This document shows positions 4,936 through 35,513 of a stretch of DNA of 38,591 nucleotides, one piece after another (position 1 is the stretch's first letter; each line of letters starts with the position of its first letter). The stretch is from contig JBBTRL010000057.1 in assembly GCA_038065195.1 (NCBI GenBank), forward strand, positions 1-38,591, written 5' to 3'. The notes under the pieces were generated by a model, which did not search any database, was not told the origin of the DNA, and worked only from the letters and a program-made list of their open reading frames with translations. A program made the position numbers and the translations under genes. Source of the DNA: Patescibacteria group bacterium. GTDB lineage: Bacteria; Patescibacteriota; Minisyncoccia; GWA2-38-13b.

Positions 4936-6057
4936 TTAGTTTCTTTCTCCTATGTCAATGTAAATTTGTTTTTCCAATCCGACATATTTTGCTCCCGGAC
5001 GGATTATTTTATTATTCGCTTGCTGTTCTATAATATGCGCTGTCCAGCCGGTTAACCGCGATAGCACAAAAATCGGCGTAAACAATTTTATTGGAATATC
5101 CAAAAGTTTATAAACTGTTGCAGTGTAAAAATCCAAATTCGGATAAAGACCTTTTTCTTTTAATAAAATTTCCTCAATGATTTTAGACATAGCATACCAT
5201 TTCCATTCTCTTGATTCTTCGGAAAGTTTTTTAGCATACGATTCAATAATGGGTGATCTTGGATCGCCGTTTTTATAAACCGGATGACCGAAGCCCATAA
5301 TTTTTTGTCCTTTAGACAAGGCATTTTCTATCCATTTTCTTGTCAATTTAGTATCGTTAATTTCCATGAGCATTTGCATTACCGCTTCATTGGCTCCGCC
5401 ATGCAATGGTCCTTTTAATGCGCCTATTGCCGAAAGAATGCAGGAAAAGTAATCTGAAAGAGTAGAAGCTGTGACACGCGCATTGAAAGTGGAGGCGGCA
5501 AGTTCGTGTTCCGCATAAAGCATCAAAGAAATGTCAAATGCTTTTTTAGCGAGAGGAGTGGGTGGTTTAAAGGTGATTTTTCGTAAAGTATTTTCTGTAA
5601 ATGATTTATTTGGTAACCAAAGACTTTTAAAGTTAGCTTTTGTTATCCATTCTAAAATTGATAATATTTTTGCTAAAAGATTTATTGCCAGTATTTCCGT
5701 TTTTTGATTTGAATTCGTTGTTGCGCCAAAAAAAGAAACCGCAAATTTTAAAATGTCCATTGGATGCGTGTTTCGCGAAATTTGATCCAGTATAATTTTT
5801 AATTTGTTTGCTTCTCGGGTATATTGGCAAACTTGATTTTCTAAAAGACATTTGGAAAATTCTTGAAGTTTTTGGCGGGTAGGCAGGCGCCCTTTTATAA
5901 GCAAATATGCTACTTCCTCAAAACAGCTTTTTTCCGCTAAATCTTTAAGGTCGTATCCTCTGTATAATATTGTTTTTAATTCATGGTCCAGTTTGACAAT
6001 TTTTGTTTCCGCTATTTCCATTCCTCTTAATCCCGTCGTTATTATTTTTTCCGGCAT
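4936..6057 (-). CDS. prpC: 2-methylcitrate synthase / citrate synthase family
   Basis: Citrate-synthase motifs LHGGANE, GFGHPVYKNGDPRS and NLDFY are present. It is the first gene of the prp operon and has an AAGGAGG SD. Confidence 0.8.
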   Translation of the reverse strand: MPEKIITTGLRGMEIAETKIVKLDHELKTILYRGYDLKDLAEKSCFEEVAYLLIKGRLPTRQKLQEFSKCLLENQVCQYTREANKLKIILDQISRNTHPMDILKFAVSFFGATTNSNQKTEILAINLLAKILSILEWITKANFKSLWLPNKSFTENTLRKITFKPPTPLAKKAFDISLMLYAEHELAASTFNARVTASTLSDYFSCILSAIGALKGPLHGGANEAVMQMLMEINDTKLTRKWIENALSKGQKIMGFGHPVYKNGDPRSPIIESYAKKLSEESREWKWYAMSKIIEEILLKEKGLYPNLDFYTATVYKLLDIPIKLFTPIFVLSRLTGWTAHIIEQQANNKIIRPGAKYVGLEKQIYIDIGERN

Positions 6058-9761: not shown

Positions 9762-10256
9762 TTATTTTTTAGGAATCCAAAAAATATCCAATATGGTATT
9801 CGTGGGGTTATCCGTGCGAAATCCGGCGATTACTTCCATGCCAATATACGGTTCGCCATACAGAAGATAACTTTTAAATATCGTGGCGAATTGAGAGCCT
9901 AAATCAATATCTATTTGGAAGTATGGATATTCCAATTCAATGCCTTCGCCCGGATATTCTACTTTTGTAAATGTATAAACTTCTCCGATAACCGGATTGG
10001 GTACTTCAATCCATGAAGTTAATTGGTTGCAGTCTGGACAGTCGGCTCTCGGAGGAAGCCATAATCGTTTTTCTTCACAATTAAAATTTGAACAGTAGGT
10101 GGCAAACAATCGGCCATTTTTTAATTCTTGGAAAAATTTTGTTAATTTTCCATAAGTATGGAAATGTTTTAGCGATCTGGGCCACTCAACAACCATTTCC
10201 GGTTTTTCTTGGATGATTTTTAGCGGTGTGCCCGTGTATTTTATTTCTTTTCCCAT
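9762..10256 (-). CDS. Zn-ribbon/OB-fold DUF35 protein (thiolase-associated)
   Basis: CSNFNCEE...CPDC zinc ribbon followed by an OB-fold-sized C-terminus. It lies immediately downstream of an SCP-x-type thiolase, which is the typical arrangement for DUF35. Confidence 0.75.
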   Translation of the reverse strand: MGKEIKYTGTPLKIIQEKPEMVVEWPRSLKHFHTYGKLTKFFQELKNGRLFATYCSNFNCEEKRLWLPPRADCPDCNQLTSWIEVPNPVIGEVYTFTKVEYPGEGIELEYPYFQIDIDLGSQFATIFKSYLLYGEPYIGMEVIAGFRTDNPTNTILDIFWIPKK

Positions 10257-10272
10257 AAATTCTCCATTGGAT

Positions 10273-11652
10273 TTAGAATGCTTTTTCCAGTAATCCGGCC
10301 GTCACATGAGAACCAACGCCGGCATGTGATATCCATAGGGCTTTTTTGGCTTTTAGCACCTGCAAGCTTATCCAGTCTTTTGGTTTTTCTTTTTTGCAAT
10401 ATTCCCATATTTTTGTATCGCCGTGGAATTTATCATATTTATTCTGAATTTGCCACAAACATTCTATCCCTTGGAAAATTCCGGTCGCGCCAACGGCATG
10501 CATTGTTCCTAAAAGTCCGCCGGAAAGATTTGACGGGCATTTTCCGCCAAAATAAGCGTCCCCTGATTCTATATAATCGGTTTCTTCTCCATATGGACGA
10601 AGTCCGATGTCTCCGTAGGTTTGCAAATCGGAAATAGTAAAAGCATCATGAAGTTCCACTAAATCTAAATCTTCAATGGGATTTTTTATACCGGCCATTC
10701 TGTAAAGCATATAAGCCGCGAAACGCGCTGCCAAGAAGCTTTCAAAGCCCGGCCAGCGCCCGCCTTGCGCTGTAATTTCTTTAAGTAATTCGTCGTACAT
10801 TCCCGATTTCTCATGAGGAAGCATGGGAATATCCATATGTCTTCTATCGGCTACGCGCAAAGTGTGCGTTCCGCCGGCAATGTAAAGACGACAAGGTTTT
10901 TCGCTTAATTCGTAAGCCAATTCTTCACTGCAAAGCAACATTGATGCGGCTCCAACGCTCATGGCACAGCATTCTAAAACTCTCAATGGATCGCAGATCA
11001 TTTTACTCGATAAAACTTCTTCTATCGTATGTTTACCGCCTTGTTGAGCATAGGGAGAATAATAAGCGTAGAGACGGTTTTTTACGGCTATTTTTGCCCG
11101 AGTTGTTTCTGAAACTTTATATATTTCCGTAAAGCGTCTTGCCATCGGCGCGTAATAAGCCGTGTACATTCTGGCAAGCCGTGTTTCAAAATCTTTGCAG
11201 GCTGCTGTTGAAATATAAAAATTTCCGGTTTTAGTATCTACTTCGTCCATTCGTTCCCAGCCCATTGCCAATACGCAGTCGGCGTACCCGGAAGCTATTG
11301 CCATTGCCGCGGCAAGCACCGTGCTTCCGCCCGTAGCTCCGCCGGTTTTTACGCCGATATTGGGCAAAGGATCAAGTCCCAAATAATCGTGCACCTTCGC
11401 TTCACATAAAAGTTGATCTTGAAAATGATCGGCGAATTCTCCATAAGCGGCAAAATTCAGCAGTCCTTTTATTTCTTTAGGCGATAACAATAAGTCATTT
11501 TCTTGCGTCATTTGCCGATAAGCCATGGCGCACAGTTCTTCCATTTTATATTCCGGAAATCTTTTCCTGAATGGCGTCAATCCGCCCGCTACAACATAAA
11601 CTGGTCGTTGCCATTTTGGGATTCTTAGGTTCCCTTTTCCAAATTTAATCAT
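10273..11652 (-). CDS. Thiolase-like protein, SCP-x / archaeal-type acetyl-CoA C-acyltransferase family
   Basis: Thiolase-fold layout with the G(G)ATGGS..AA region and a C-terminal GGLLG..HAVGATG motif. Its start overlaps the upstream synthetase stop by 4 nt. Confidence 0.75.
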   Translation of the reverse strand: MIKFGKGNLRIPKWQRPVYVVAGGLTPFRKRFPEYKMEELCAMAYRQMTQENDLLLSPKEIKGLLNFAAYGEFADHFQDQLLCEAKVHDYLGLDPLPNIGVKTGGATGGSTVLAAAMAIASGYADCVLAMGWERMDEVDTKTGNFYISTAACKDFETRLARMYTAYYAPMARRFTEIYKVSETTRAKIAVKNRLYAYYSPYAQQGGKHTIEEVLSSKMICDPLRVLECCAMSVGAASMLLCSEELAYELSEKPCRLYIAGGTHTLRVADRRHMDIPMLPHEKSGMYDELLKEITAQGGRWPGFESFLAARFAAYMLYRMAGIKNPIEDLDLVELHDAFTISDLQTYGDIGLRPYGEETDYIESGDAYFGGKCPSNLSGGLLGTMHAVGATGIFQGIECLWQIQNKYDKFHGDTKIWEYCKKEKPKDWISLQVLKAKKALWISHAGVGSHVTAGLLEKAF

Positions 11653-13616
11653 CTTCTGATTACCTCCCTTATCTCTTTCAAAACTTGCGGATTCTCAATT
11701 GACGAAATATCGTCAATCTTTTCTCCCATATAAACTTTTTTTATCAATTTTCGTGGAATTTTTCCGGAACGCGTTTTCGGCAACGCCGAAACGAAATAAA
11801 TAATATCCGGACAAAGAGTTTTTCCGAGTTTTTCGGAAACATATTTTTTCAATAATTCTTCAGCGGTTTCTTTTTGAATTAATTTTGACCATAAAACAGA
11901 AAAACAAACAAAGCATACGATTTTTTCTCCCTTTAATTTGTCCGGAATGCCGATAACCGCCGCTTCTTTTACGGATTGATGACTCATTAAACAATCTTCA
12001 ATTTCCGCGGGACCAACGCGTCGACCGGCAACTTTTATTACATCGTCGGATCTTCCATAAAGAAACCAAAATCCGTCTTTATCGGTTTTAGCAAAATCGC
12101 CGTGATACCAAGTATCTGGCCATCGCGAAAAATATGTTTCAATATATTTTTTTTTACCATTATCGCCGATAAATCCTTTAGTCATTGATGGAAATGGTTT
12201 TTTGCAAACCAAATGTCCTATTTTACCGCGCGTCGGCGTTCCATTATCGTTAAAAACATCAATATCCATACCAAGTCCTGGTCCCCCGAGAGTGCAAGGT
12301 TTAAGCGGCATTATCGGTAATGGAGATAAAAAGCATCCGATAATTTCCGTTCCGCCGGATATATTTATAATTGGGCATTTTTTATTTCCGATATTTTTGA
12401 AATACCAAAGATATGATTCTTTGTCCCATGTTTCGCCCGTAGAACCTAAAATTCTTAACGATGAAATATCATATTTTTTCAAGAAGTCATCGTCAAAACT
12501 TTTAAGTATTCTTATGGCTGTCGGCGCAATCCCAAAAATACTAACTTTATATTTTTCTATAATTCTAAACAAACGATTATGATCCGGCCAATCGGGCTTG
12601 CCTTCAAAAATTACATAGGTGCCGCCGAAAAATTGAACTCCCAATATTTCCCATGGACCCATCATCCATCCAATATCCGTATACCAAAAGAAAATATCGT
12701 TTTTTTTATAATCAAAATAATATTTTATTTCTTTCGTAGTTTGGGTAAGCGCGCCGGCATGGGTATGAATCGCTCCTTTTGGTTTTCCCGTAGTCCCGGA
12801 AGTGAAGAGAATTAAAGCGGGATGTTCAGCGTTAAGGGATTGAGTTTCAATATTTTTTGCGCCGTTAGCCATTTTTAAAAAATCGTCCCAGAAAATATCG
12901 CGATCTTTTTCCATTATCGTTTCTATTTTCAGCCGTTTAATAACAATCGTTTTTTTCAGAGAAGGTATGGTTTTTAGAATTTCGTTGATATTGTTTTTCA
13001 GTTGAATTATTTTATTTCTAAGCGGGAATCCGTCACTTGTAAATAGAATTTTTGCTTTAGCGATGCGTAGTCGTTCTGCCATTGCTTCTGCTCCGAAACC
13101 GGACATAATAGGAAGGGCAATCGCGCCGATTTTCATAGCGGCGAACATAATAATGACAGTTTCGGGAATAAATGACATATAAATTCCGACAACATCGTTT
13201 TTTCCAATGCCGTTTTTTACAAGCGCTTGGCTTGCGCAACAAACTTTTTCGTATAATTTTTGATAGGTGAATGCTATTGAATTTTCGTCATTACCTTCCC
13301 AATAAAAAGCGATTTCCTCGCCTTTACCGTCGCGAATATGACGGTCAAGGCAGTTGTGGACAATGTTAATTTTTCCGTCTAAAAACCAGTGCGTCCAGGG
13401 CATTCCCCATGTGTTGTCATAAAGCGTGCGGTATTTTTTAAACCATTCAATTTTTAAATCATTAACGCAGGCGTTCCAAAACCATTCAATGTTATCGGTA
13501 GAGCGTTTTATAAGTTCTTGGTATGTTTTTATCCCATAGCGTTTCATAAATAGAGCGATATTGCTTTTGTGGAGATAATCGCCATACGGTTCCCAGATAA
13601 AATCATTTTTTTTCAT
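11649..13616 (-). CDS. AMP-forming acyl-CoA synthetase (acetyl/propionyl/acetoacetyl-CoA synthetase family)
   Basis: AMP-binding motif ILFTSGTTGKPKG, YGRSDDVIKVAGRRVGPAEIE and C-terminal LPKTRSGKI are present. Length is 655 aa. Confidence 0.85.
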   Translation of the reverse strand: MKKNDFIWEPYGDYLHKSNIALFMKRYGIKTYQELIKRSTDNIEWFWNACVNDLKIEWFKKYRTLYDNTWGMPWTHWFLDGKINIVHNCLDRHIRDGKGEEIAFYWEGNDENSIAFTYQKLYEKVCCASQALVKNGIGKNDVVGIYMSFIPETVIIMFAAMKIGAIALPIMSGFGAEAMAERLRIAKAKILFTSDGFPLRNKIIQLKNNINEILKTIPSLKKTIVIKRLKIETIMEKDRDIFWDDFLKMANGAKNIETQSLNAEHPALILFTSGTTGKPKGAIHTHAGALTQTTKEIKYYFDYKKNDIFFWYTDIGWMMGPWEILGVQFFGGTYVIFEGKPDWPDHNRLFRIIEKYKVSIFGIAPTAIRILKSFDDDFLKKYDISSLRILGSTGETWDKESYLWYFKNIGNKKCPIINISGGTEIIGCFLSPLPIMPLKPCTLGGPGLGMDIDVFNDNGTPTRGKIGHLVCKKPFPSMTKGFIGDNGKKKYIETYFSRWPDTWYHGDFAKTDKDGFWFLYGRSDDVIKVAGRRVGPAEIEDCLMSHQSVKEAAVIGIPDKLKGEKIVCFVCFSVLWSKLIQKETAEELLKKYVSEKLGKTLCPDIIYFVSALPKTRSGKIPRKLIKKVYMGEKIDDISSIENPQVLKEIREVIRR

Positions 13617-15969: not shown

Positions 15970-17541
15970 ATGGACGAAAGAAATAAAAATAATAAGGAAA
16001 AATCATTTTGCAAAAAACCGATTGATGAATTTGACTATTCGTTGAAATTAGGCGATCCGGGGCAATACCCTTATACTCGCGGGATACATTTGGAAATGTA
16101 TAAAAAACAACTTTGGACAATGAGGCAATTTGCCGGTTTCGGTTCAGCCGATGATACTAATAAAAGATTTAAGTATTTATTGGAACACGGTGAAACCGGA
16201 CTTTCAACGGCTTTTGATATGCCGACGCTTTTGGGTCGCGATTCCGATGATCTTGTTTACGGAAAAGAAACCGGTCTATGCGGCGTTGCCATTGATACTT
16301 TGGCGGATATGGAAATTCTTTTTGATGGAATTGACTTGAATCCGCCGATTTCCACTTCAATGACGATTAACGCGCCGGCCATTGTTTTGTTCGCAATGTA
16401 TTTGGTTGTTGCCGAAAAAAAAGGAACGGATTGGAAGAATTTGCGCGGGACGATTCAAAATGACATTTTGAAAGAATATATCGCGCAAAAGGAATGGATT
16501 TTCCCGCCGGAGCCGTCTATGCGGATTATTGCGAATATTGTTGAATTTTGTTGTAAAAATGTTTCTCAATGGTATCCGATAAGTATCAGCGGTTATCATA
16601 TTCGGGAAGCCGGTTCAACGGCGGTTCAAGAGTTGGCTTTTACTTTGCGAGATGGCATTGAATATGTTGAATGGGCTATAAGGGCCGGTTTGAAGGTTGA
16701 TGATTTCGCGCCGCGTTTTTCATTCTTTTTTGATTCTTGCGAGAATTTTTTTAGGGAGATTGCTAAATTCAGGGCCGCTCGACGTATGTGGGCCCGAATT
16801 ATGAAGGAAAGATTTCACGCCAAAAATGAGAAATCGCTTCAGCTTCGTTTTCATACGCAGACAAGCGGTCTTAGTTTGCAGGCAACTGAATTGGAAAATA
16901 ATGATGTTCGCACGACATCACAGGCGTTATCCGCCATTTTGGGAGGCACTCAGTCGTTGCATACAAATTCACACGACGAAACATTGTGCTTGCCTACCGA
17001 GGAAGCCGTGAAGATCGCTTTGCGGATACAGCAAATTATTGCCTATGAAATGGATATAACAGGAGTAGTTGATCCGTTAGGCGGAGCATACTGGATTGAA
17101 AATTTAACCGATGAGTTGGAAAAAATAGCGATGCATTACATTGATATTATAGATGGGATGGGCGGTATGTTAAAAGCTATTGAACAGGGTTATCCTCAAA
17201 GAGAAATCAGGCGTTCCGCTCTTGAGCGTTGCAAAAAAATAGCAACTGGAGAAAAAATTATTATCGGCGTGAATAAATTTCCGGCAAAAGAAAAGCAGAT
17301 TATTCCGGTTTTAAAGATTGATCCGGAAATTAGAATGAAACAAGTTAAACGGCTCAATGAAGTCAAGCAAAAGCGCGATAATTTCAAAGTTAAGCAATGC
17401 CTTGAATATATAAGTTGCGTTGCGGTTTCAAAAGGAAATCTTATGTTTTCGATTATTGAAGCGGTAAAAAATTACGCGACGATAGGTGAGATTTGTCTTG
17501 CGCTTGAAAAAGTATTCGGAAGATACGAAGAGAAAATTTAA
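15970..17541 (+). CDS. icmA: B12-dependent acyl-CoA mutase, catalytic barrel subunit, isobutyryl-CoA-mutase type
   Basis: Motifs YPYTRG, WTMRQFAGFG, GLSTAFDMPT, GTIQNDILKEYIAQKEWIFPP, SISGYH and LHTNSHDE are present, with no B12 domain. The Phe in RQFAGF and the Gln in IAQKEW occupy the positions that are Tyr89 and Arg207 in methylmalonyl-CoA mutase. The start is set at ATG 15970. Confidence 0.75.
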   Translation: MDERNKNNKEKSFCKKPIDEFDYSLKLGDPGQYPYTRGIHLEMYKKQLWTMRQFAGFGSADDTNKRFKYLLEHGETGLSTAFDMPTLLGRDSDDLVYGKETGLCGVAIDTLADMEILFDGIDLNPPISTSMTINAPAIVLFAMYLVVAEKKGTDWKNLRGTIQNDILKEYIAQKEWIFPPEPSMRIIANIVEFCCKNVSQWYPISISGYHIREAGSTAVQELAFTLRDGIEYVEWAIRAGLKVDDFAPRFSFFFDSCENFFREIAKFRAARRMWARIMKERFHAKNEKSLQLRFHTQTSGLSLQATELENNDVRTTSQALSAILGGTQSLHTNSHDETLCLPTEEAVKIALRIQQIIAYEMDITGVVDPLGGAYWIENLTDELEKIAMHYIDIIDGMGGMLKAIEQGYPQREIRRSALERCKKIATGEKIIIGVNKFPAKEKQIIPVLKIDPEIRMKQVKRLNEVKQKRDNFKVKQCLEYISCVAVSKGNLMFSIIEAVKNYATIGEICLALEKVFGRYEEKI

Positions 17542-18708: not shown

Positions 18709-19457
18709 ATATTATTGTTTGCGTAAAACAGGCGCCGGACATTGAGAAGTCAGTAAAAATTGCTGAAAAAATTATAGATGAGGGTTCTGATTTCGTGCTC
18801 AATCCTTTGGATGAGCACGCGGTTAAGGAAGCGGTTAACATTAAAGAAAAAATGGGCGGAAAAATTACGGCGTTGACTTTGGGGCCGGAACGCGCAAAAC
18901 AAGCATTGTTGAGGTGTCTTGCGCGCGGAGCGGACGAGGCGATTCATATTAAAACCGATACGACTTATAATTTTGATTCAACCGTTGTATCCGTTGTTTT
19001 GGCGGAAAAAATAAAAACATTGCCCTTTGACATAATTCTTTTTGGAAGCAAATCTGTTGATACAAATAGTGGCAGTTGCGGCGTTCAGATTGCGAAAATT
19101 TTAGACATTCCATGCGTTCCGGAAATTATCAAACTGGAGATTGGTCAAGAAAAGGCTGTTGTTATACGACAGATGGATGGCGGAGAAGAAACGGTTGAAT
19201 GTTTACTTCCGGCGGTTTTCACTTGCCAGAAAGGCATCAATGAATTAGGACTTCTGCGCCTTCCTGAAATACTGCAAGCTAAGAAAAAACCATTAATAAT
19301 TGAAAATCTTTCGCAAAATATTAGTTCAACTTCTGAGATTATAAGTTTGGAGTTTTTGCCGGAAAGAAAAAGCGGATTAATAATAAAAGGAAGTCCCGAA
19401 GAGCAGGTTAATGAGCTAGTTATTATTCTTAAAAAACAGGGAATTCCGGGAGGATAG
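18705..19457 (+). CDS. etfB: Electron transfer flavoprotein, beta subunit
   Basis: MNIIVCVKQAPD start and 250 aa length. ATG 18705 overlaps the upstream stop as ATGA. The ORF-track start at 18651 is rejected. Confidence 0.85.
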   Translation: MNIIVCVKQAPDIEKSVKIAEKIIDEGSDFVLNPLDEHAVKEAVNIKEKMGGKITALTLGPERAKQALLRCLARGADEAIHIKTDTTYNFDSTVVSVVLAEKIKTLPFDIILFGSKSVDTNSGSCGVQIAKILDIPCVPEIIKLEIGQEKAVVIRQMDGGEETVECLLPAVFTCQKGINELGLLRLPEILQAKKKPLIIENLSQNISSTSEIISLEFLPERKSGLIIKGSPEEQVNELVIILKKQGIPGG

Positions 19458-19459
19458 AA

Positions 19460-20449
19460 ATGGAAAAAATTTTAGTTTTTACTGAAATTAAATCCGGCGT
19501 CATAACCAAATTAAGCATTGAGGTTTTGGGTAAAGCGCGTGAACTTGCCGATAAGTATGGTAAAAAAGTAGTAGGGTTGGTTTTGGGAAATGATTTTAAT
19601 AATTTTTCAACTCCGATTGATTCTTTGGCGCGGTTCGGAGTTGATGAATTTTTACTTGCTGAGAGTGATAAGTTTGCGGATTATAATAGTGAGATATACG
19701 GGAAAATTATTTGCGGAGAAATTGAAAAATTAAAACCGCAAATTATTTTTTTCGGTTCTTCCAAAATTGGTCGGGAGCTTGCTTCGCAAATTTCCGCAAA
19801 ATTTTTAAGTTGTTGTTTTCAGGATTGCGTTGATGTTGACATTGAAAACGATTTTTTGAAAGCAAAGCGATTAGTTTTGGCGGGAAAAGTTTTTGCGATA
19901 TTGAAGAGCAAGTGTTCGCAATTTCAAGTTGCGACATTGCAGCAGGGAATTTTTCAGTCGAAAATCGTGGAAAAAGATGCGGAAATGACGCGAATAGACA
20001 TCCCCGCGGATTTAACCAGTCGGATTGTCAGAAAGGAATTTATCAATAGATCTTCCGGTCAAGTTTCTTTATTGGAAGCAAAAATTATTGTGTCCGGCGG
20101 TCGGGGAGTTAAAAGCGCGGAAAATTTTAAAATCCTTGAAGCGTTAGCCGATGTTTTAAATGGAGCCGTAGGCGCTTCTCGCGGCGCGGTTGATCTTAAA
20201 TTGCGCGTTTCTGACGATCAAGTTGGTTTAACCGGAAAAACCGTATCGCCGCAACTTTATATCGCTTGCGGCATTTCCGGCGCGTCTCAACATTTGGCGG
20301 GAATAACACGGGCGAAATTCATTGTCGCGATAAACAGCGACAATGAAGCGTCAATATTCAAAATAGCTGACGTAGGAATTGTTGGTGATTTGTTTGAAAT
20401 CATTCCGCTTCTGACAAAAGCGTTAAAGAATTTGAAAGGGGAAAAATAA
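19460..20449 (+). CDS. etfA: Electron transfer flavoprotein, alpha subunit
   Basis: The C-terminal FAD-binding block is SGGRG..VGASRGAVD..GLTGKTVSPQLYIACGISGASQHLAG. Confidence 0.85.
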   Translation: MEKILVFTEIKSGVITKLSIEVLGKARELADKYGKKVVGLVLGNDFNNFSTPIDSLARFGVDEFLLAESDKFADYNSEIYGKIICGEIEKLKPQIIFFGSSKIGRELASQISAKFLSCCFQDCVDVDIENDFLKAKRLVLAGKVFAILKSKCSQFQVATLQQGIFQSKIVEKDAEMTRIDIPADLTSRIVRKEFINRSSGQVSLLEAKIIVSGGRGVKSAENFKILEALADVLNGAVGASRGAVDLKLRVSDDQVGLTGKTVSPQLYIACGISGASQHLAGITRAKFIVAINSDNEASIFKIADVGIVGDLFEIIPLLTKALKNLKGEK

Positions 20450-30187: not shown

Positions 30188-32380
30188 TTATAATAAACTT
30201 TCCGGATCAACATCAATTTCCCAGTTTGACGGAATGAGCCGCAGTATTTTATTTTTTGATTCTTGATTTTCTGGCGGAATTTTTATAATAATGTGCCAAT
30301 TATACCCTCCCCTTTTTTTGGGTATAAACGCGGGTGCCGGTCCGATTGTAGACAATATACCAACATTCTCGGATTTATAAGTATGTTGCGTGTTCGTTGC
30401 AGTGGTTTTTTGTTCATCGGTTTTCGGTGATTGCGAACCATAAATTGTAAGTTTTTCATATAATCGTTTTGCTTCTTGTTCCGCGATTTGTTTATTTTTA
30501 TGCGAAAAAGTTAATTTTATGATTTGCGAAAACGGGGGATAATTGAATAATTTTCTTAATTTCAGTTCTTCTTTATAAAAATTTTTATAATCGTTTTGAA
30601 GCGCGTATTTTATCGCATAGTGATCTGGCGAATATGTTTGGTAAAGTATTTTTCCGTCATTTTTTACTTTTTGCAATAGAGAAATTATTATCTGGAAAGT
30701 TCTTTCGCCGCTGCGAAAATCCGGCATATTGAGCATGGAGTCGGAATTTATTATTCCCAAAAAATCAGTTTCGGATATATCAGACGATGTCATTAGTTGT
30801 GTGCCTATCAGAATGCCGTTATTTTCATTGAAATTTTTGATTATATCTTTTTTCATTTTTTCTGTTTTAGCCGTATCGCTATCTAGCCGCAATATTTTTT
30901 GTTCGGGAAAGATTTTTTGCAACTCTTCTTCCACTTTTTCCGTTCCGCCCCCCAAAAATTTTATTCTGTGTCCGTGGCAGTTGGGGCAGAAATCGGGCGC
31001 GTTTTTTTTGTAGCCACAGCAGTGGCATAAGAGCGATTGCTGTTTTTTATTTATGGTAGTGTTATCCGTCACGCCCCGTCCGTCTACAGACGGACGGGGC
31101 GTGACGCGAACGAGACTGCCGTGGACGGGGCGCGGCAATGAATGTAGTACCATAGGCGTTTCGCAATTTTTACATTTTATTATATGTCCGCAGTCGCGAC
31201 ACAATATCGCGCTTGCTTCACCACGACGGTTGATGAAAAGAATGATTTTTTTATCCTTGCCCGTCGGTAGGCATTGTCCGCGGGAGATTTCCCGCGGGGA
31301 GACTTTTTTTCCAACATATTTTTTCAGTTCTTCCAAAAGTTCACGGCTGAAAATGGAATAATTTTTCGCTTTCATTTCTTCGCGCATATCAATGATTTTG
31401 GAATTTGGAACTTGGAACTTGAAACCATTTTGAAAGGAAAAAAATTGTCTACCTTCGGTAGATCTTCCGTGGGCCATGCCTGCCGACAGGTGGGAAGAAA
31501 AATTGTTTTCTATACTTGGCGTTTCGCTTTGCATTATCATTTTAGCGTTATGCAGTTCCGCCAGTTTTTTCGCGGTTTCCCTCGCATGATATTTCGGGTG
31601 TTGATCCCAAGATTTATAGTGCGGATTATGCTCTTCGGTAAGAATAATAAGTCCTAAATCGCGGAAAGGTAAAAATAGCGCTTTGCGCGCGCCAAAGATT
31701 ATTTTTATTTTTCCTTGCGCGGTTTTTTTCCAAATTTCTTGGAATTGTTTTGGAGATACCCTTGAAGTAATCGTTGCGGTTTCTCTTTTGGCAATAGGGG
31801 ATATGAGCGGAGTGAGTTCTTTCTGCAGATAATCTAAGATATTTATTTCCGGCGCGAGGATAAGGATTTGCCTTTTTTTTTCAAGAGTTTTTTCAATTTC
31901 TTTTTGAAAATAATGAATGCCATTTTTTATATCAGATTGCAGTAAGTTTGTGTCCCTTCGGGACATCTCCCGCAGGGAGAGTATTTGGAATTTTGAAATT
32001 GAGATTTTTTTGTAATTTGTAATTTGTAATTTGTAATTTGAATCTATGTTGTGAGGCAACATAGATTTTAGTATTAATCCCAATGATTCGTAGTAATAAT
32101 TATGTATCCAAAACGCCAATTCCAATTGTTTCGGTGATATAACTGGTTTGGCGCTTAAAATTTCTTTGATAGGGGATAATTGAAAGTCGGCTTTTCTTAT
32201 ACTCATTTTTTCGTCTTCAAGCAAGCGACTGTTTATTACAATAGCCGGAGTTTTTCTTTTGCCCAGCGGCGCCATTACCAAACTGCCTTGTTTTATGCTG
32301 ACTTTATTTGTGAAGTATGTTAGTATTTGGGTGTTGGGTAATGGAATTTTGGTTAGAGTAATTGTTTCAATAATTCGCAT
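30188..32380 (-). CDS. priA: Primosomal protein N' (PriA) homologue with degenerate ATPase motifs and several in-frame insertions
   Basis: PriA-collinear blocks ILILAPEI, FGARKALFLPF, LFINRRG, the four Cys pairs (CRDC, CKNC, CHCC, CPNC), GGGTEKVEEEL, ILIGTQ, NYPPF, GPAPAFIPKKRGGYNWHI. Walker A is absent and DEEH reads TEEH. Confidence 0.8.
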   Translation of the reverse strand: MRIIETITLTKIPLPNTQILTYFTNKVSIKQGSLVMAPLGKRKTPAIVINSRLLEDEKMSIRKADFQLSPIKEILSAKPVISPKQLELAFWIHNYYYESLGLILKSMLPHNIDSNYKLQITNYKKISISKFQILSLREMSRRDTNLLQSDIKNGIHYFQKEIEKTLEKKRQILILAPEINILDYLQKELTPLISPIAKRETATITSRVSPKQFQEIWKKTAQGKIKIIFGARKALFLPFRDLGLIILTEEHNPHYKSWDQHPKYHARETAKKLAELHNAKMIMQSETPSIENNFSSHLSAGMAHGRSTEGRQFFSFQNGFKFQVPNSKIIDMREEMKAKNYSIFSRELLEELKKYVGKKVSPREISRGQCLPTGKDKKIILFINRRGEASAILCRDCGHIIKCKNCETPMVLHSLPRPVHGSLVRVTPRPSVDGRGVTDNTTINKKQQSLLCHCCGYKKNAPDFCPNCHGHRIKFLGGGTEKVEEELQKIFPEQKILRLDSDTAKTEKMKKDIIKNFNENNGILIGTQLMTSSDISETDFLGIINSDSMLNMPDFRSGERTFQIIISLLQKVKNDGKILYQTYSPDHYAIKYALQNDYKNFYKEELKLRKLFNYPPFSQIIKLTFSHKNKQIAEQEAKRLYEKLTIYGSQSPKTDEQKTTATNTQHTYKSENVGILSTIGPAPAFIPKKRGGYNWHIIIKIPPENQESKNKILRLIPSNWEIDVDPESLL
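31064..31135. repeat. 72-nt GC-rich in-frame block inside priA containing a 38-nt palindrome
   Basis: gtcacgccccgtccgtc-taca-gacggacggggcgtgac (31068-31105) forms a 17-bp perfect stem. GGACGGGGCG occurs at 31092 and 31123, and inverted at 31072. My hand count gives about 72% G+C. Confidence 0.9.
31278..31297. repeat. GC-rich 8-bp stem-loop inside priA
   Basis: ccgcggga-gatt-tcccgcgg. Confidence 0.9.
31398..31425. repeat. Heptanucleotide tandem repeat (ttggaac-like, 4 units) inside priA
   Basis: ttggaat ttggaac ttggaac ttgaaac. Confidence 0.9.
31448..31498. repeat. Two adjacent GC-rich stem-loops inside priA
   Basis: tctacc-ttc-ggtaga (31448-31462). Next comes tcttcc...ggaaga (31463-31498), which encloses cctg-ccga-cagg. 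Confidence 0.85.
31951..31980. repeat. Two back-to-back 15-nt stem-loops inside priA
   Basis: tgtccc-ttc-gggaca (31951-31965) and tctccc-gca-gggaga (31966-31980). Confidence 0.9.
32012..32039. repeat. Perfect heptanucleotide tandem repeat (gtaattt)x4 inside priA
   Basis: Four exact 7-nt units are preceded by T7. They encode ..YKLQITNYK... Confidence 0.95.
32041..32067. repeat. 10-bp perfect stem-loop inside priA
   Basis: aatctatgtt-gtgaggc-aacatagatt. Confidence 0.9.
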
Positions 32381-32634: not shown

Positions 32635-32705
32635 CAGGAAATTTTTAACCTTTAATTCCGCAAGGAGATAAAAATTACGGGATTTTTTTATTGGGAGTAA
32701 TCGCG

Positions 32706-32814: not shown

Positions 32815-33138
32815 CTAAAAATGTTTTTCTAATTCTGATTTAAGAAAAGGAATATCGGTAATTATCGTATTCCATACTATATCCAAATCAACTTCAAAAT
32901 AATCATGGACAGCTTTATCTCTGAATCCGGCGATATCTTTCCATGGCAAATTTATGGAATTTTTTGTTTGAGCGGAAATCTTTTTTGAAACTTCTCCGAT
33001 AAGCATAAGCTGCATTATGATCGCGCTTTGCGTTTTCTCGTCGGCGTTAAAATTCGCGCTGTTCATATTAAGGGTGAACGATTGTATTTTTCTAACCGCG
33101 TCTAAAATTTGTTTAATGTAGACATTATCATCTTTCAT
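32815..33138 (-). CDS. hepT: HepT (DUF86) family RNase toxin
   Basis: The Rx4HxY motif is present in FRDKAVHDY. Length is 107 aa. It overlaps the upstream mntA by 11 nt. Confidence 0.85.
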   Translation of the reverse strand: MKDDNVYIKQILDAVRKIQSFTLNMNSANFNADEKTQSAIIMQLMLIGEVSKKISAQTKNSINLPWKDIAGFRDKAVHDYFEVDLDIVWNTIITDIPFLKSELEKHF

Positions 33139-33415
33139 ATATTATTTTTAAATCAGGCTGTATATATGGCCTGACGAATTTATTAATGCTGTTTTCGGTA
33201 ACCAGATCAACTTTTCTGCCTAATTTATTTTCCATTTCTCGTATTAAACTCATGTATGCAAACATACCGATTGGTTTTCCGAGAGAAATCATAATGTCAA
33301 TATCGCTTTCGGGCTTATTGTCTCCGCGCGAAACAGAACCAAAAATCGCAGCGCGTTTAACGCCGTATTCTTTAAGAATTGGTAATATTTTTTTTTGTAT
33401 CTCTAATATATTCAT
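33128..33415 (-). CDS. mntA: MntA-type minimal nucleotidyltransferase antitoxin
   Basis: IFGSVSRGD...SDIDI (GSxxRG...DxD) is present. Length is 95 aa. Confidence 0.85.
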   Translation of the reverse strand: MNILEIQKKILPILKEYGVKRAAIFGSVSRGDNKPESDIDIMISLGKPIGMFAYMSLIREMENKLGRKVDLVTENSINKFVRPYIQPDLKIIYER

Positions 33416-33936: not shown

Positions 33937-33981
33937 CTCGTAATTTCCGCCCAAGCGGACAAAAAATTACGGGATTTTTTT
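33937..33981 (+). terminator. Intrinsic terminator; a decayed paralogous copy lies at about 32651-32690
   Basis: tcgtaattt...aaattacgg outer stem, ccgc-ccaa-gcgg inner stem, then T7. Confidence 0.7.
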
Positions 33982-34631: not shown

Positions 34632-35513
34632 ATGGCAAACATTCGCGGTCTTAATATTGATAATTTTACAAAAAATCAGGCATTGCAAAAAATCGGCGAT
34701 TTTTTGTGCGATGGTCGCCAGCATTGGATCGCGACGATAAATCCGGAAATAGCGGTAAGGGCGTATAAAGACGAAAAATACCGCGATATTTTAAACAAAG
34801 CGGATTTACGAGTGGCGGACGGAATAGGAATTATTTTGGCTTCGCGGTTTTTGGGCGAAAAATTGAGAGAAAGAATCGTTGGCGTTGATTTGGTTTATGA
34901 CATTTTGGCGGATTTGAATCACCGTTTCCTGCGCCGTATCCCGGATACGGCGGTACCGTCGTATCCGGGATACGGCGAATACGGCGAAGAAAACGGTGGC
35001 AATTCGCGTGTGATGATTATCGGCGCGGAAAAAGATTCGCGTGAAAAAGCAATGAAAAATTTAAAAAAACTTTTTCCTTATGTTGAATTGGGAATTTCTT
35101 TGTTAAAGATAAAATTTAATAGGGAAAATAATGGGGAAACAGACCTTGCCTACTGGCAGGCAGGAAAAAATAATAAGGAAAATAGGGAAATGTTGGCAGA
35201 GTTAAATGGGGAAATAAGGAAATTCGCGCCGGATATATTGTTTGTCGCGTTCGGCGCGCCGCGCCAAGAACAATGGATATGCGATAATTTGCCGCTTTTG
35301 CCTTCGGTTAAACTGGCAATCGGCGTTGGTGGCGCCATTGATATGATTTCCGGAAAACTGCCGCGCGCGCCAAAAATAATAAGGAAAATGGGAGCGGAAT
35401 GGTTGTGGCGATTTTGTCTGGAGCCGCGTCGCGCTAAAAGGATTTTTAATGCGGTTGCGGTTTTTCCTTTTATTGTTTTTACGGAAGTTTTATTCTGCGC
35501 CAGAAAGCCTTAA
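34632..35513 (+). CDS. WecB/TagA/CpsF-family glycosyltransferase with two in-frame insertions
   Basis: Motifs TINPEI, ADLRVADGIGI, FVAFGAPRQEQWI, IGVGGAIDMISGKLPRAP and EWLWR are present. It is collinear with TagA except for the two inserted blocks. Confidence 0.8.
   Translation: MANIRGLNIDNFTKNQALQKIGDFLCDGRQHWIATINPEIAVRAYKDEKYRDILNKADLRVADGIGIILASRFLGEKLRERIVGVDLVYDILADLNHRFLRRIPDTAVPSYPGYGEYGEENGGNSRVMIIGAEKDSREKAMKNLKKLFPYVELGISLLKIKFNRENNGETDLAYWQAGKNNKENREMLAELNGEIRKFAPDILFVAFGAPRQEQWICDNLPLLPSVKLAIGVGGAIDMISGKLPRAPKIIRKMGAEWLWRFCLEPRRAKRIFNAVAVFPFIVFTEVLFCARKP
34920..34998. repeat. Structured GC-rich insert 1 in the TagA-family gene
   Basis: It is bounded by the 8-bp inverted repeat caccgttt/aaacggtg. 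Internal palindromes are gccgtatcc-c-ggatacggc (34933-34951) and cgtatcc-g-ggatacg (34960-34974). tacggcgaa occurs twice in tandem. Confidence 0.85.
35118..35224. repeat. Insert 2 in the TagA-family gene: purine-rich decamer repeats flanking a GC hairpin
   Basis: aatagggaaa, aatggggaaa and aataaggaaa each occur twice on either side of tgcc-tact-ggca (35147-35158). Confidence 0.8.

What the first reader, a model, noticed from the sequence alone, without database searches (positions are those of the whole stretch)
31064..31135. 72-nt GC-rich block with a 38-nt palindrome inserted in-frame in the PriA zinc-finger region
Seen in sequence: gtcacgccccgtccgtc-taca-gacggacggggcgtgac (31068-31105) forms a 17-bp perfect stem. 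The decamer GGACGGGGCG occurs twice directly and once inverted. The block is about 72% G+C by my hand count, in a strongly AT-rich gene. It is 72 nt long, a multiple of 3, and encodes PRPVHGSLVRVTPRPSVDGRGVTD. Because of the palindrome, both strands encode VTPRPS(V/T)DGRGVT, and the antisense ORF 31053-31361 shows this. The block sits between the 2nd and 3rd Cys pairs, where this protein has 45 residues against 14 in E. coli PriA. Established knowledge: palindromic elements that insert in-frame into genes are known in Rickettsia (RPEs). Inference: this is a foreign palindromic mini-element, or a structure-forming insert, tolerated in a surface loop. It is related in style to the other GC-rich hairpins in priA and the tagA-like gene.
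Basis: partly seen in the sequence, partly recalled or inferred. Interest (0 to 1): 0.7.

Follow-up and report, generated by a model that had tools for sequence, protein, structure and literature searches.

The report
GC-rich palindromic insert in priA
A groundwater Parcubacteria (CPR) bacterium carries a real, translated 75-78-base GC-rich palindromic insert in a floppy loop of its replication-restart helicase PriA, and it looks like one of a small family of hairpin repeats in this lineage, a bacterial counterpart of Rickettsia palindromic elements and yeast mitochondrial GC clusters.

Summary
The palindrome is a perfect 19+2+19 (31067-31106). The decamer occurs three times. The block is 72% G+C against 37% for the rest of priA. 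It is in frame, at the tip of the zinc-ribbon hairpin between Cys pairs 2 and 3.

It is a true insertion. It is absent from the closest orthologue (P0003) and from 68 other PriA proteins. It is identical in four independent assemblies.

AlphaFold2 predicts it as a disordered loop.

No second full-length copy was found. Two partial relatives were. Its 5' end, TTGCCGCGCCCCGTCC, matches 15 of 16 bases in both arms of an in-frame palindrome in a glycosyltransferase gene of the sister genome. Its arms resemble a terminator-like palindrome just beyond the window's right end in the same species.

Other GC palindromes here are demonstrably repeated: wecG and murC in this species, priA and mnmA in the sister. 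Copies are read in different frames and orientations. priA, wecG and murC carry different palindromes at the same sites in the two species.

Best reading: a lineage-specific REP/RPE/GC-cluster-like DNA element tolerated in a permissive loop. How it spreads is unknown. It is a new variant of a known kind, of moderate interest.

The parts
30188..32380 (-). priA (primosomal protein N', 730 aa), the host gene
   Evidence: ORF. Pfam PriA_3primeBD and PriA_C. PDB PriA matches at E about 1e-53.
31061..31138 (-). The whole in-frame insert (element E1): 26 codons, LPRPVHGSLVRVTPRPSVDGRGVTDN, where the closest orthologue P0003 has one codon
   Evidence: Codon alignment. Indel table (31061-31135, GC 0.71, dG -45.7). 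Frame.
31067..31106 (.). Perfect palindrome, 19-nt arms CGTCACGCCCCGTCCGTCT / AGACGGACGGGGCGTGACG with a 2-nt centre
   Evidence: RNA fold.
31117..31137 (.). Second, small hairpin (7-bp stem) that carries the solo half-site GCCGCGCCCCGTCC (31123-31136, minus strand). The element's 5' end TTGCCGCGCCCCGTCC is 31123-31138 on the minus strand.
   Evidence: Folds. Pattern hit. Match to the L002 palindrome.
31028..31162 (-). Loop between Cys pair 2 (C403/C406) and Cys pair 3 (C452/C455) of the PriA cysteine-rich region, 45 residues
   Evidence: Invariant cysteines. Loop lengths. Strands E411-414 and E448-451, with pLDDT below 50 at 420-428 and 436-442.
31253..31303 (-). Second window-specific in-frame GC-rich insert in priA (E2, VSPREISRGQCLPTGKD), with hairpin 31277-31298
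   Evidence: (GC 0.65, dG -23.4).
31445..31495 (-). Third GC-rich, hairpin-forming variable segment of priA (E3, HLSAGMAHGRSTEGR)
   Evidence: Codon alignment. Low pLDDT at residues 300-320. Small hairpin 31448-31462.
34917..34998 (+). In-frame palindromic insert in the wecG/tagA-like gene (E4; core palindrome 34932-34977). A second copy lies in murC of the same species (L005 1532-1594).
   Evidence: blastn E = 3e-7.

Best explanation
The block is an in-frame intragenic copy of a lineage-specific family of short GC-rich palindromic DNA repeats found in this group of groundwater Parcubacteria. It is a composite: a solo half-site plus a perfect 19-bp inverted pair of the same motif. The family is marked by the end and arm motif (TT)GCCGCKYCCCGTCC.

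Shown: it is an insertion into the tip of the zinc-ribbon beta-hairpin between Cys pairs 2 and 3 of PriA. It is fixed in the species. It keeps the reading frame. It is predicted to be a disordered 25-26-residue loop. Related palindromes occur in frame in another gene of the sister species, and between genes as a terminator-like hairpin in the same species.

Inferred: the element exists at the DNA level, not for the peptide it encodes. It is neutral or selfish. It survives only where a frame-preserving, stop-free insertion lands in a permissive loop. Copies are spread or replaced either by a trans-acting enzyme not yet identified, or by gene conversion or template switching between palindromes. 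That process would keep the arms perfect and make the elements species-specific even at orthologous sites.
For: Insertion status: the block is absent from P0003, the closest orthologue (0.796 identity), and from all 68 other relatives.

Not an artefact: it is identical in four independent assemblies whose priA genes differ by 1-2 SNPs.

Permissive site: this loop varies from 12 to 32 aa in relatives. AlphaFold2 gives mean pLDDT 87.8, but below 50 and no secondary structure in the insert.

Family links: TTGCCGCGCCCCGTCC matches both arms of L002 20109-20153 with one mismatch, with no such match in any of 100 shuffles. That palindrome is in frame in a GT4 interdomain linker and is read in the same frame, LPLPV against LPRPV. 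In the same species, L005 3500-3539 has arms GCCGCGTCCCGTCCGTC. It starts 12 nt after a stop codon and is followed by T5. murC element E5 has the same ends, TTGCCGCGCC...GGCGCGGCAA, around a different core.

Sibling GC palindromes are real repeats: wecG E4 against murC E5, E = 3e-7; L002 priA F4 against mnmA F5, E = 1e-9. They are read in different frames and orientations, giving unrelated peptides. So the DNA is what is conserved, not the protein.

Same sites, different palindromes: priA, wecG and murC each carry a different palindrome at the same position in the two species.

Precedent: intragenic REPs encoding 20-30 aa, many of them in replication and repair genes (PMC3733652); in-frame GC clusters with shared termini in yeast mtDNA (PMC8811140).
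Against: No second full-length copy of this block was found anywhere.

- Within about 52 kb of its own genome and 22 kb of the sister genome there are only 15-17-nt partial matches. blastn E-values for these are 0.2-0.6, although composition-aware shuffles give 0 in 100.
- The GTDB-representative scan with 12+12-nt arms found only GC-rich genomes and one Saccharibacteria terminator. It did not even recover this species.
- The JGI metagenome scan with an 18-nt arm gave 58 single-arm chance hits.
- A peptide search of 1.84 billion representatives gave nothing. That is a weak test, because one protein stands for each 50%-identity cluster.

No target-site duplication, no terminal signature beyond the palindrome itself, and no cognate transposase was seen. 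The only Y1/RAYT-like gene is in the sister genome and is flanked by unrelated AT-rich hairpins. The consensus GCCGCKYCCCGTCC was derived after the fact from the same sites it describes.
Confidence: 0.55

Rival explanations
1. Local de novo palindrome. The insert arose in place by replication template switching or snap-back synthesis (inverted duplication and quasi-palindrome correction) in a loop that tolerates indels. It is not, and never was, mobile. Similarity to other hairpins reflects shared mutational bias toward the same GC-rich motifs.
For: The block is internally repetitive: the decamer occurs three times, twice direct and once inverted. The arms are perfect. No full second copy was found. 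The same population shows a 45-nt in-frame indel whose sequence pairs with its own flank (ATGACCC...GGGTCAT), as templated insertions do. This lineage's priA is full of other indels, including 7-nt tandem arrays.
Against: It does not explain the 15/16 match, in the same reading frame, to a palindrome in a different gene of a different species. Nor does it explain the shared TTGCCGCGCC ends of the murC element, or the clear multi-copy status of sibling palindromes. No donor sequence for the block exists in the flanks or elsewhere in the window.
Confidence: 0.22
2. Selected function. Either the hairpin acts in the priA mRNA or DNA (ribosome or RNA polymerase pause, RNase site, cruciform), or the extra 25 residues give the PriA zinc-binding region a new interaction surface.
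For: Very stable structure: -50 kcal/mol, z = -6.7. The arms are perfect and the block is identical in all four strains. A second lineage has also enlarged the same loop. The related palindrome L005 3500-3539 sits where a terminator would.
Against: The four strains are nearly clonal, so identity says little. There is no U-tract after the stem on either strand, and no terminator call at the block. There is no Rfam match. The closest relative does without the insert. The sister lineage's insert at the same site has an unrelated sequence and peptide. The model predicts disorder. Sibling elements are read in different frames.
Confidence: 0.1
3. A patch of foreign DNA captured from a GC-rich organism, or an assembly chimera.
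For: The local composition is extreme (0.72 against 0.37). The 18-nt arm occurs in many GC-rich environmental contigs.
Against: Those matches are single arms, at about the number expected by chance, and none is palindromic. The block is identical in four assemblies from different samples, whose contig names follow different naming conventions. Its closest partial relatives are in AT-rich Parcubacteria.
Confidence: 0.03

Closest known systems
Rickettsia palindromic elements (RPE; Ogata et al. 2000; RPE-4 and RPE-6 were reclassified as CGTC-type REPs in PMC3733652)
   Same: Short palindromic DNA repeats in a small AT-rich genome. They are inserted in frame into protein-coding genes, including DNA replication and repair genes. 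They are translated as extra loops at permissive positions. Sibling copies are read in different frames.
   Different: A different phylum (Patescibacteria/Parcubacteria) and no sequence relationship. The element here is shorter (45-80 nt against about 100-150 nt, the latter figure from my own knowledge) and much more GC-rich than its host, with perfect 19-21-bp arms. Copy number is unknown. Orthologous sites in two species carry different elements.
Intragenic REPs of the GTAG/CGTC super-families (Di Nocera et al. 2013, PMC3733652)
   Same: Palindromic repeats found mostly downstream of genes, but also inside ORFs. There, dimers encode 20-30 aa, and many are in replication or repair genes. CGTC REPs have no known transposase. 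Here too one relative is a terminator-like hairpin downstream of a gene.
   Different: Those REPs have 8-9-bp stems with an unpaired GTAG or CGTC tag and a tail. This palindrome starts with CGTC, but that tetranucleotide is paired, and the stem is 19 bp. No RAYT association was found.
GC clusters of yeast mitochondrial DNA, including the in-frame var1 insertions and the Magnusiomyces 'byp' elements (PMC8811140)
   Same: Short GC-rich palindromes scattered in an AT-rich genome. They can sit in frame in coding sequence. Different clusters share terminal sequences. They evolve fast by merger and shuffling and differ between related genomes. This is the best match to the composite structure of E1 and E5 and to the species-specific sequences at shared sites.
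   Different: These are organellar, not bacterial. GC clusters show AG/TAG target-site repeats, which were not seen here. Byps are skipped by the ribosome, whereas this block is open in frame and needs no bypass.
Intrinsic (Rho-independent) terminator hairpins
   Same: The arm sequence is almost that of the terminator-like hairpin L005 3500-3539. Its inner 12 bp is identical to the stem of a Saccharibacteria terminator (L019 730-757).
   Different: The priA block has no T-run after the stem on either strand, and it lies inside an essential ORF.

Membership tests
Rickettsia palindromic elements (RPE)-type in-frame repeats | Palindromic sequence able to form a stable hairpin | tested here: met
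   19-bp perfect arms. -50.3 kcal/mol, z = -6.7.
Rickettsia palindromic elements (RPE)-type in-frame repeats | Inserted inside an ORF without breaking the frame, and absent from orthologues | tested here: met
   26 codons against 1 in P0003. Absent from 69 relatives, except for an unrelated insert in P0002.
Rickettsia palindromic elements (RPE)-type in-frame repeats | Many dispersed, recognisably similar copies in the same genome | tested here: inconclusive
   Only about 52 kb of the genome was available. One related palindrome was found (L005 3500-3539), plus shared ends with murC element E5. No full-length copy was found. The collection scans were negative and did not recover the species itself.
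Rickettsia palindromic elements (RPE)-type in-frame repeats | Insert lies at a surface or permissive position of the host protein | tested here: met
   AlphaFold2: pLDDT below 50 and no secondary structure, at the tip of a beta-hairpin. Loop length is variable in relatives.
Rickettsia palindromic elements (RPE)-type in-frame repeats | Sequence homology to the RPE-1 to RPE-10 consensus sequences | not tested
The host is a Parcubacterium, not a member of the Rickettsiales.
REP / REPIN (GTAG- or CGTC-tagged; RAYT-associated) | 20-40-bp imperfect palindrome with an 8-9-bp stem and an unpaired GTAG or CGTC tag at one end | tested here: not met
   The stem is 19 bp and perfect. CGTC is present at 31067-31070 but is base-paired. 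Definition taken from PMC3733652.
REP / REPIN (GTAG- or CGTC-tagged; RAYT-associated) | A cognate RAYT (Y1 transposase) gene flanked by the same repeats | tested here: not met
   No Y1_Tnp gene appears in the gene tables for the loci of this species; the window's own ORFs were not scanned systematically. The Y1_Tnp gene in sister locus L002 (18813-19502) is flanked by unrelated hairpins, TTTACGTAACCGCAAGACGTAAA, which are absent from the window. The rest of the genome was not seen.
Yeast mitochondrial GC clusters | Short GC-rich palindromic clusters in an AT-rich genome, able to sit in frame in coding sequence | tested here: met
   GC 0.72 against 0.37. In frame.
Yeast mitochondrial GC clusters | Different clusters share terminal sequences; elements form by merger or shuffling | tested here: met
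   TTGCCGCKCC ends are shared by E1, by E5 (which has a different core) and by F6.
Yeast mitochondrial GC clusters | Short target-site repeats (AG/TAG) flanking the element | tested here: not met
   No direct repeat is seen at the junctions of E1, E5 or F6.
MITE | Terminal inverted repeats plus target-site duplication, derived from an IS element | tested here: not met
   No target-site duplication and no related IS in the DNA seen. The element is under 80 nt.
Intrinsic terminator | GC-rich stem immediately followed by a U-tract | tested here: not met
   No terminator-like call at 31067-31106 on either strand. The stem is followed by GGATAAC on the sense strand and CGCGAAC on the antisense strand.
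Translational bypass elements (byp) | Insert retained in the mRNA but skipped by the ribosome | not testable with these tools
   This needs proteomics. The block is open in frame, so bypass is not required.

The most novel reading that the evidence does not exclude
Groundwater Parcubacteria carry an undescribed class of GC-rich perfect-palindrome elements, at about one per 10 kb in the DNA seen. These elements colonise permissive loops of essential genes (priA, murC, wecG, mnmA, a glycosyltransferase) as well as terminator positions. They share ends (TTGCCGCKCC), and they are homogenised or replaced within each genome, so that orthologous sites in sister species carry different palindromes. 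That would make them a bacterial counterpart of mitochondrial GC clusters, moved by a mechanism not yet known.
Probability: 0.35. Interest if true: 0.65.

Novelty: new variant of a known kind. Interest (0 to 1): 0.5.

Why it matters
In-frame palindromic repeats have been documented in Rickettsia, in some Proteobacteria and Opitutus, and in fungal mitochondria. I found no report of them in the Candidate Phyla Radiation (Patescibacteria).

If the pattern holds genome-wide, it has several consequences:

- It would explain many of the odd lineage-specific inserts that inflate CPR proteins and confuse homology searches and gene models.
- It would show that perfect 40-60-nt palindromes are stable in these genomes, which bears on what hairpin-processing repair they have. 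Whether they lack SbcCD-type nucleases was not tested.
- The same-site, different-sequence pattern between sister species offers a natural system for studying how such repeats turn over.

For PriA specifically, it marks the tip of the zinc-ribbon hairpin between Cys pairs 2 and 3 as a position that tolerates more than 25 extra residues.

Tried and rejected
1. Peptide search of the 5.8-billion-protein index with the four open frames of the block concatenated: nothing. A local phmmer run showed that PriA itself should have scored E = 3e-7. The index simply did not retrieve it, so the negative is uninformative.

2. HMMER search of 1.84 billion cluster representatives with the 33-aa insert peptide: no hits. 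This is a weak test, because lineage-specific inserts are rarely present in the protein that represents a 50%-identity cluster.

3. GTDB-representative scan for GCCCCGTCCGTC-N(0-10)-GACGGACGGGGC: 18 loci. Most are GC-rich actinomycetes and similar organisms. One is a Saccharibacteria intrinsic terminator. The window's own species was not recovered. In hindsight a pattern built on the termini (TTGCCGCKCC) would have been the better use of the single scan.

4. JGI metagenome scan with the 18-nt arm: 58 chance hits, none palindromic.

5. IMG/VR scans with the 16-nt end and with the wecG/murC core: chance coding matches only.

6. Rfam, at gathering and at E-value thresholds: nothing meaningful.

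7. Link to a RAYT or IS200-like transposase: the only candidate, in the sister genome, has its own unrelated flanking hairpins.

8. Indels between the three assemblies of the sister genome: none.

9. More distant PriA loci L152 and L153: no long perfect GC palindromes, so the phenomenon looks restricted to this clade.

10. Intragenic terminator and assembly artefact: both rejected.
Full report
**What is in the sequence**

The inverted-repeat finder gives arms 31067-31085 and 31088-31106: 19 nt, 100% complementary, 2 nt apart. That is one pair longer on each side than reported.

GGACGGGGCG occurs exactly three times, at 31072-31081 (minus strand), 31092-31101 and 31123-31132 (plus strand). G+C of 31064-31135 is 0.722. 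The rest of the gene is 0.366 and the window is 0.379. As RNA the 91-nt segment folds at -50.3 kcal/mol, z = -6.7, with none of 200 shuffles as stable.

The host ORF, 30188-32380 on the minus strand (730 aa), is priA. It has Pfam PriA_3primeBD and PriA_C and matches solved PriA structures at E about 1e-53. The alignment to Klebsiella PriA breaks exactly at residues 415-441.

The block is in frame. The antisense ORF 31053-31361 carries the mirror peptide. Four of the six frames across the block are open.

**It is a true, fixed insertion and not an artefact**

The organism is a Parcubacterium (CPR/Patescibacteria). The nearest PriA proteins are P0003 and P0002. P0002 comes from Parcubacteria bacterium GW2011_GWA2_38_13b.

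In a codon alignment the window has 26 codons (31061-31138) where P0003 has one. Among 71 PriA sequences, the segment between Cys pair 2 and Cys pair 3 is 12-32 residues in 69 relatives, 45 in the window and 56 in P0002.

Over 618 ungapped columns the window is closer to P0003 (0.796 identity) than to P0002 (0.759). So the closest known relative lacks the insert.

Three other assemblies of the same species carry priA genes that differ from the window's by 1-2 SNPs and have the identical block. They come from different samples, and their contig names follow different naming conventions.

**Where it sits in the protein**

An AlphaFold2 model built from 71 sequences has mean pLDDT 87.8 and pTM 0.89. 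Residues 420-428 and 436-442 are below 50, and there is no secondary structure between strands 411-414 and 448-451.

This places the insert at the tip of the zinc-ribbon hairpin and predicts it to be disordered. Every other lineage-specific segment of this PriA (about residues 110-140, 300-320, 360-375 and 650-675) is also low-confidence coil.

**The block is one of several GC-rich palindromic in-frame inserts**

Gene-by-gene comparison with the sister loci shows the following window-specific inserts:

- priA 31253-31303: GC 0.65, with hairpin 31277-31298.
- The variable segment priA 31445-31495.
- wecG/tagA-like 34917-34985: GC 0.61, dG -48, with nested palindrome 34932-34977.
- A smaller insert at 35142-35165.

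The relatives carry their own inserts:

- P0003 has a 36-nt hairpin insert near the PriA C-terminus.
- The sister genome (L002) has perfect 21-bp-stem palindromes at 77-124 and 20109-20153, and 9-bp ones at 5808-5829 and 17331-17354.

The L002 elements are present in three independent assemblies that are 99.98% identical.

**Some of these palindromes are demonstrably repeated elements**

The wecG core has a second copy in the murC gene of the same species:

- wecG: CGCCGTATCCCGGATACGGCG-GTAC-CGTCGTATCCGGGATACGGCG
- murC (L005 1532-1594): TTGCCGCGCCTGCCGTATCCCGGATACGGC-AA-CGCCGTATCCGGGATACGGCAGGCGCGGCAA

blastn gives E = 3e-7 between them.

In L002, the insert in the same PriA loop (CCAGCCCAAGGCTGGTCCGCCTCGGACGGACAAATT) recurs in mnmA with 38 of 42 bases identical, E = 1e-9.

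The copies are read in different frames or orientations and give unrelated peptides:

- RRIPDTAVPSYPGYG against AVSRIRRCRIRDTA.
- PAQGWSASDGQI against FNFSARGGPASGW.

So the DNA is what is conserved, not the protein.

**Links of the priA block itself**

No full-length second copy was found. However, its 5' end TTGCCGCGCCCCGTCC matches both arms of the L002 palindrome 20109-20153 (TTGCCGCTCCCCGTCC...) with one mismatch. No such match appeared in 100 dinucleotide shuffles.

That element is 45 nt and in frame. It lies in the linker between the two glycosyltransferase domains and is read in the same frame, LPLPV... against LPRPV....

In the same species, about 250 nt beyond the window's right end, an intergenic palindrome (L005 3500-3539) has arms GCCGCGTCCCGTCCGTC. 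It starts 12 nt after a stop codon and is followed by T5 on the gene strand, so it looks like a terminator.

The murC element has the same ends, TTGCCGCGCC...GGCGCGGCAA, around a different core.

The priA block can therefore be read as an L002-20109-like palindrome with both outer arms kept (15/16 and 11/16 by my hand count). Its centre has been expanded by a further copy of the arm motif.

One caveat applies. blastn E-values for these 15-16-nt matches are only 0.2-0.6, and the consensus GCCGCKYCCCGTCC was derived from the same sites it describes.

**Same sites, different elements**

In priA, wecG and murC, the window species and the sister species both carry an insert at the same position, but the palindromes are unrelated in sequence. 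P0003's lineage has none in priA or wecG.

Two scenarios fit. In the first, the inserts are ancestral, were later homogenised or replaced within each genome, and were lost in the P0003 lineage. In the second, insertion happened repeatedly into very few permissive sites. I cannot decide between them.

**Searches for copies elsewhere**

- GTDB representatives, 12+12-nt arms: 18 loci. Most are from GC-rich genomes. One is a Saccharibacteria intrinsic terminator with an identical 12-bp stem. The window's own species was not recovered.
- JGI metagenomes, 18-nt arm: 58 single-arm matches, mostly in GC-rich contigs, none palindromic.
- IMG/VR: chance matches only.
- Peptide searches: negative, but of little weight.
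- Rfam: no family.
- Terminator scan: no terminator-like site at the block.

**Mechanism**

No target-site duplication is seen at the junctions.

The only Y1/RAYT-like gene is L002 18813-19502. It scores 32 bits against Pfam Y1_Tnp, and 32.5 bits against NCBIfam REP_Tyr_transpos, where the cutoff is 80. It is flanked by its own AT-rich hairpins, which are absent from the window.

Shown: the block is an insertion, it preserves the frame, it forms a disordered loop, there are DNA-level families among the sibling elements, and element ends are shared.

Inferred: the block is a passenger that survives because it is open in frame and sits in a tolerant loop. Spread or turnover occurs either by an unidentified enzyme or by conversion or template switching between palindromes, which would also keep the arms perfect.

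A 45-nt in-frame indel that is polymorphic between strains, and that pairs with its own flank (window about 279-323), shows that hairpin-forming indels are arising now in this population.

**Comparison with what is known**

Di Nocera et al. (PMC3733652) describe REPs inside ORFs that encode 20-30 aa. Many are in replication and repair genes. They also equate RPE-4 and RPE-6 with CGTC-type REPs. The present element fails their structural definition, because its stem is 19 bp and its CGTC is paired.

Yeast mitochondrial GC clusters (PMC8811140) match the behaviour best. They are GC-rich palindromes in AT-rich DNA, they insert in frame in var1, different clusters share termini, and they evolve by merger and shuffling. 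They are organellar, however, and they have target-site repeats.

Full-text searches found no description of such elements in Parcubacteria or Patescibacteria. More distant Parcubacteria PriA loci (L152, L153) lack long perfect GC palindromes.

**Verdict**

I rate it a new variant of a known kind and give it interest 0.5.

Noticed in passing
window 32009-32040 and 31398-31425 (inside priA): Perfect 7-nt tandem arrays inside the coding sequence: TTTGTAA x4.6 at 100% match, and TTGGAAC x4.0. They are translated as NYKLQITNYK and FKFQVPNSK. Orthologues have other heptamer arrays at the same places, for example AACCTAA-type repeats in the Cys-pair loop of P0003-P0005 and AAATTCC-type repeats next to the GC hairpins in L002. 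A period of 7 is unusual inside an ORF, because only multiples of three units keep the frame.
   Followed up: partly
window 32664-32689 and 33962-33981; L002 6201-6270, 7756-7825 and about 9755; L001 1462-1511: A conserved terminator-like repeat family. The outer stem is TCCCGTAATTT...AAATTACGGGA, followed by a T-run, around a variable GC-rich inner hairpin. It is shared by three related genomes (blastn E down to 3e-10).
   Followed up: partly
window about 279-323 (3' part of a rarA/mgsA-like AAA gene that runs off the left edge); L084 11277-11321: A 45-nt in-frame presence/absence polymorphism between strains of the same species. It is present in the window, L084 and L086 and absent in L085 and L087. 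The extra segment forms hairpins TCATGGT...ACCATGA and ATGACCC...GGGTCAT, the second of which pairs with the flank.
   Followed up: partly
L005 3500-3539 (about 250 nt beyond the window's right end) and L019 730-757: A terminator-like palindrome of the same species whose arms nearly match the priA block. A Saccharibacteria MAG, whose accession prefix resembles that of the window species' NCBI assembly, has an intrinsic terminator whose 12-bp stem GCCCCGTCCGTC is identical to the block's inner stem. Whether that is chance or shared origin is undecided.
   Followed up: partly
L002 7099-7881 against 10001-12172: The sister genome carries a partial duplicate of the priA 5' region: a 260-aa ORF with PriA_3primeBD, 89% identical over 340 nt. 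A Fic-domain gene lies between the copy and the full gene.
   Followed up: no
L002 18784-18812 and 19523-19553, flanking the gene at 18813-19502: A divergent Y1 (IS200/RAYT-like) transposase gene flanked on both sides by the same AT-rich hairpin, TTTACGTAACCGCAAGACGTAAA. It is not found in the window.
   Followed up: yes
window 32815-33415: A HepT-like (HEPN) and nucleotidyltransferase (MNT) toxin-antitoxin gene pair lies just upstream of priA. In the sister genome a Fic gene occupies the corresponding position.
   Followed up: no
window about 700-24000 (gene tables of the identical loci L084 and L006): A long run of fatty-acid beta-oxidation and methylcitrate-cycle genes: acyl-CoA dehydrogenases, thiolases, enoyl-CoA hydratase, 3-hydroxyacyl-CoA dehydrogenase, ETF, PrpD, a PEP-mutase/ICL-family protein and citrate synthase. 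This is unusually rich metabolism for a Parcubacterium and worth a check of binning and phylogeny.
   Followed up: no
L005 237-2078: The murC-like gene of this species is called as two ORFs (266 aa and 228 aa) with an 85-aa ORF on the opposite strand between them. It may be a split gene, a pseudogene, or a further insert containing a stop.
   Followed up: no
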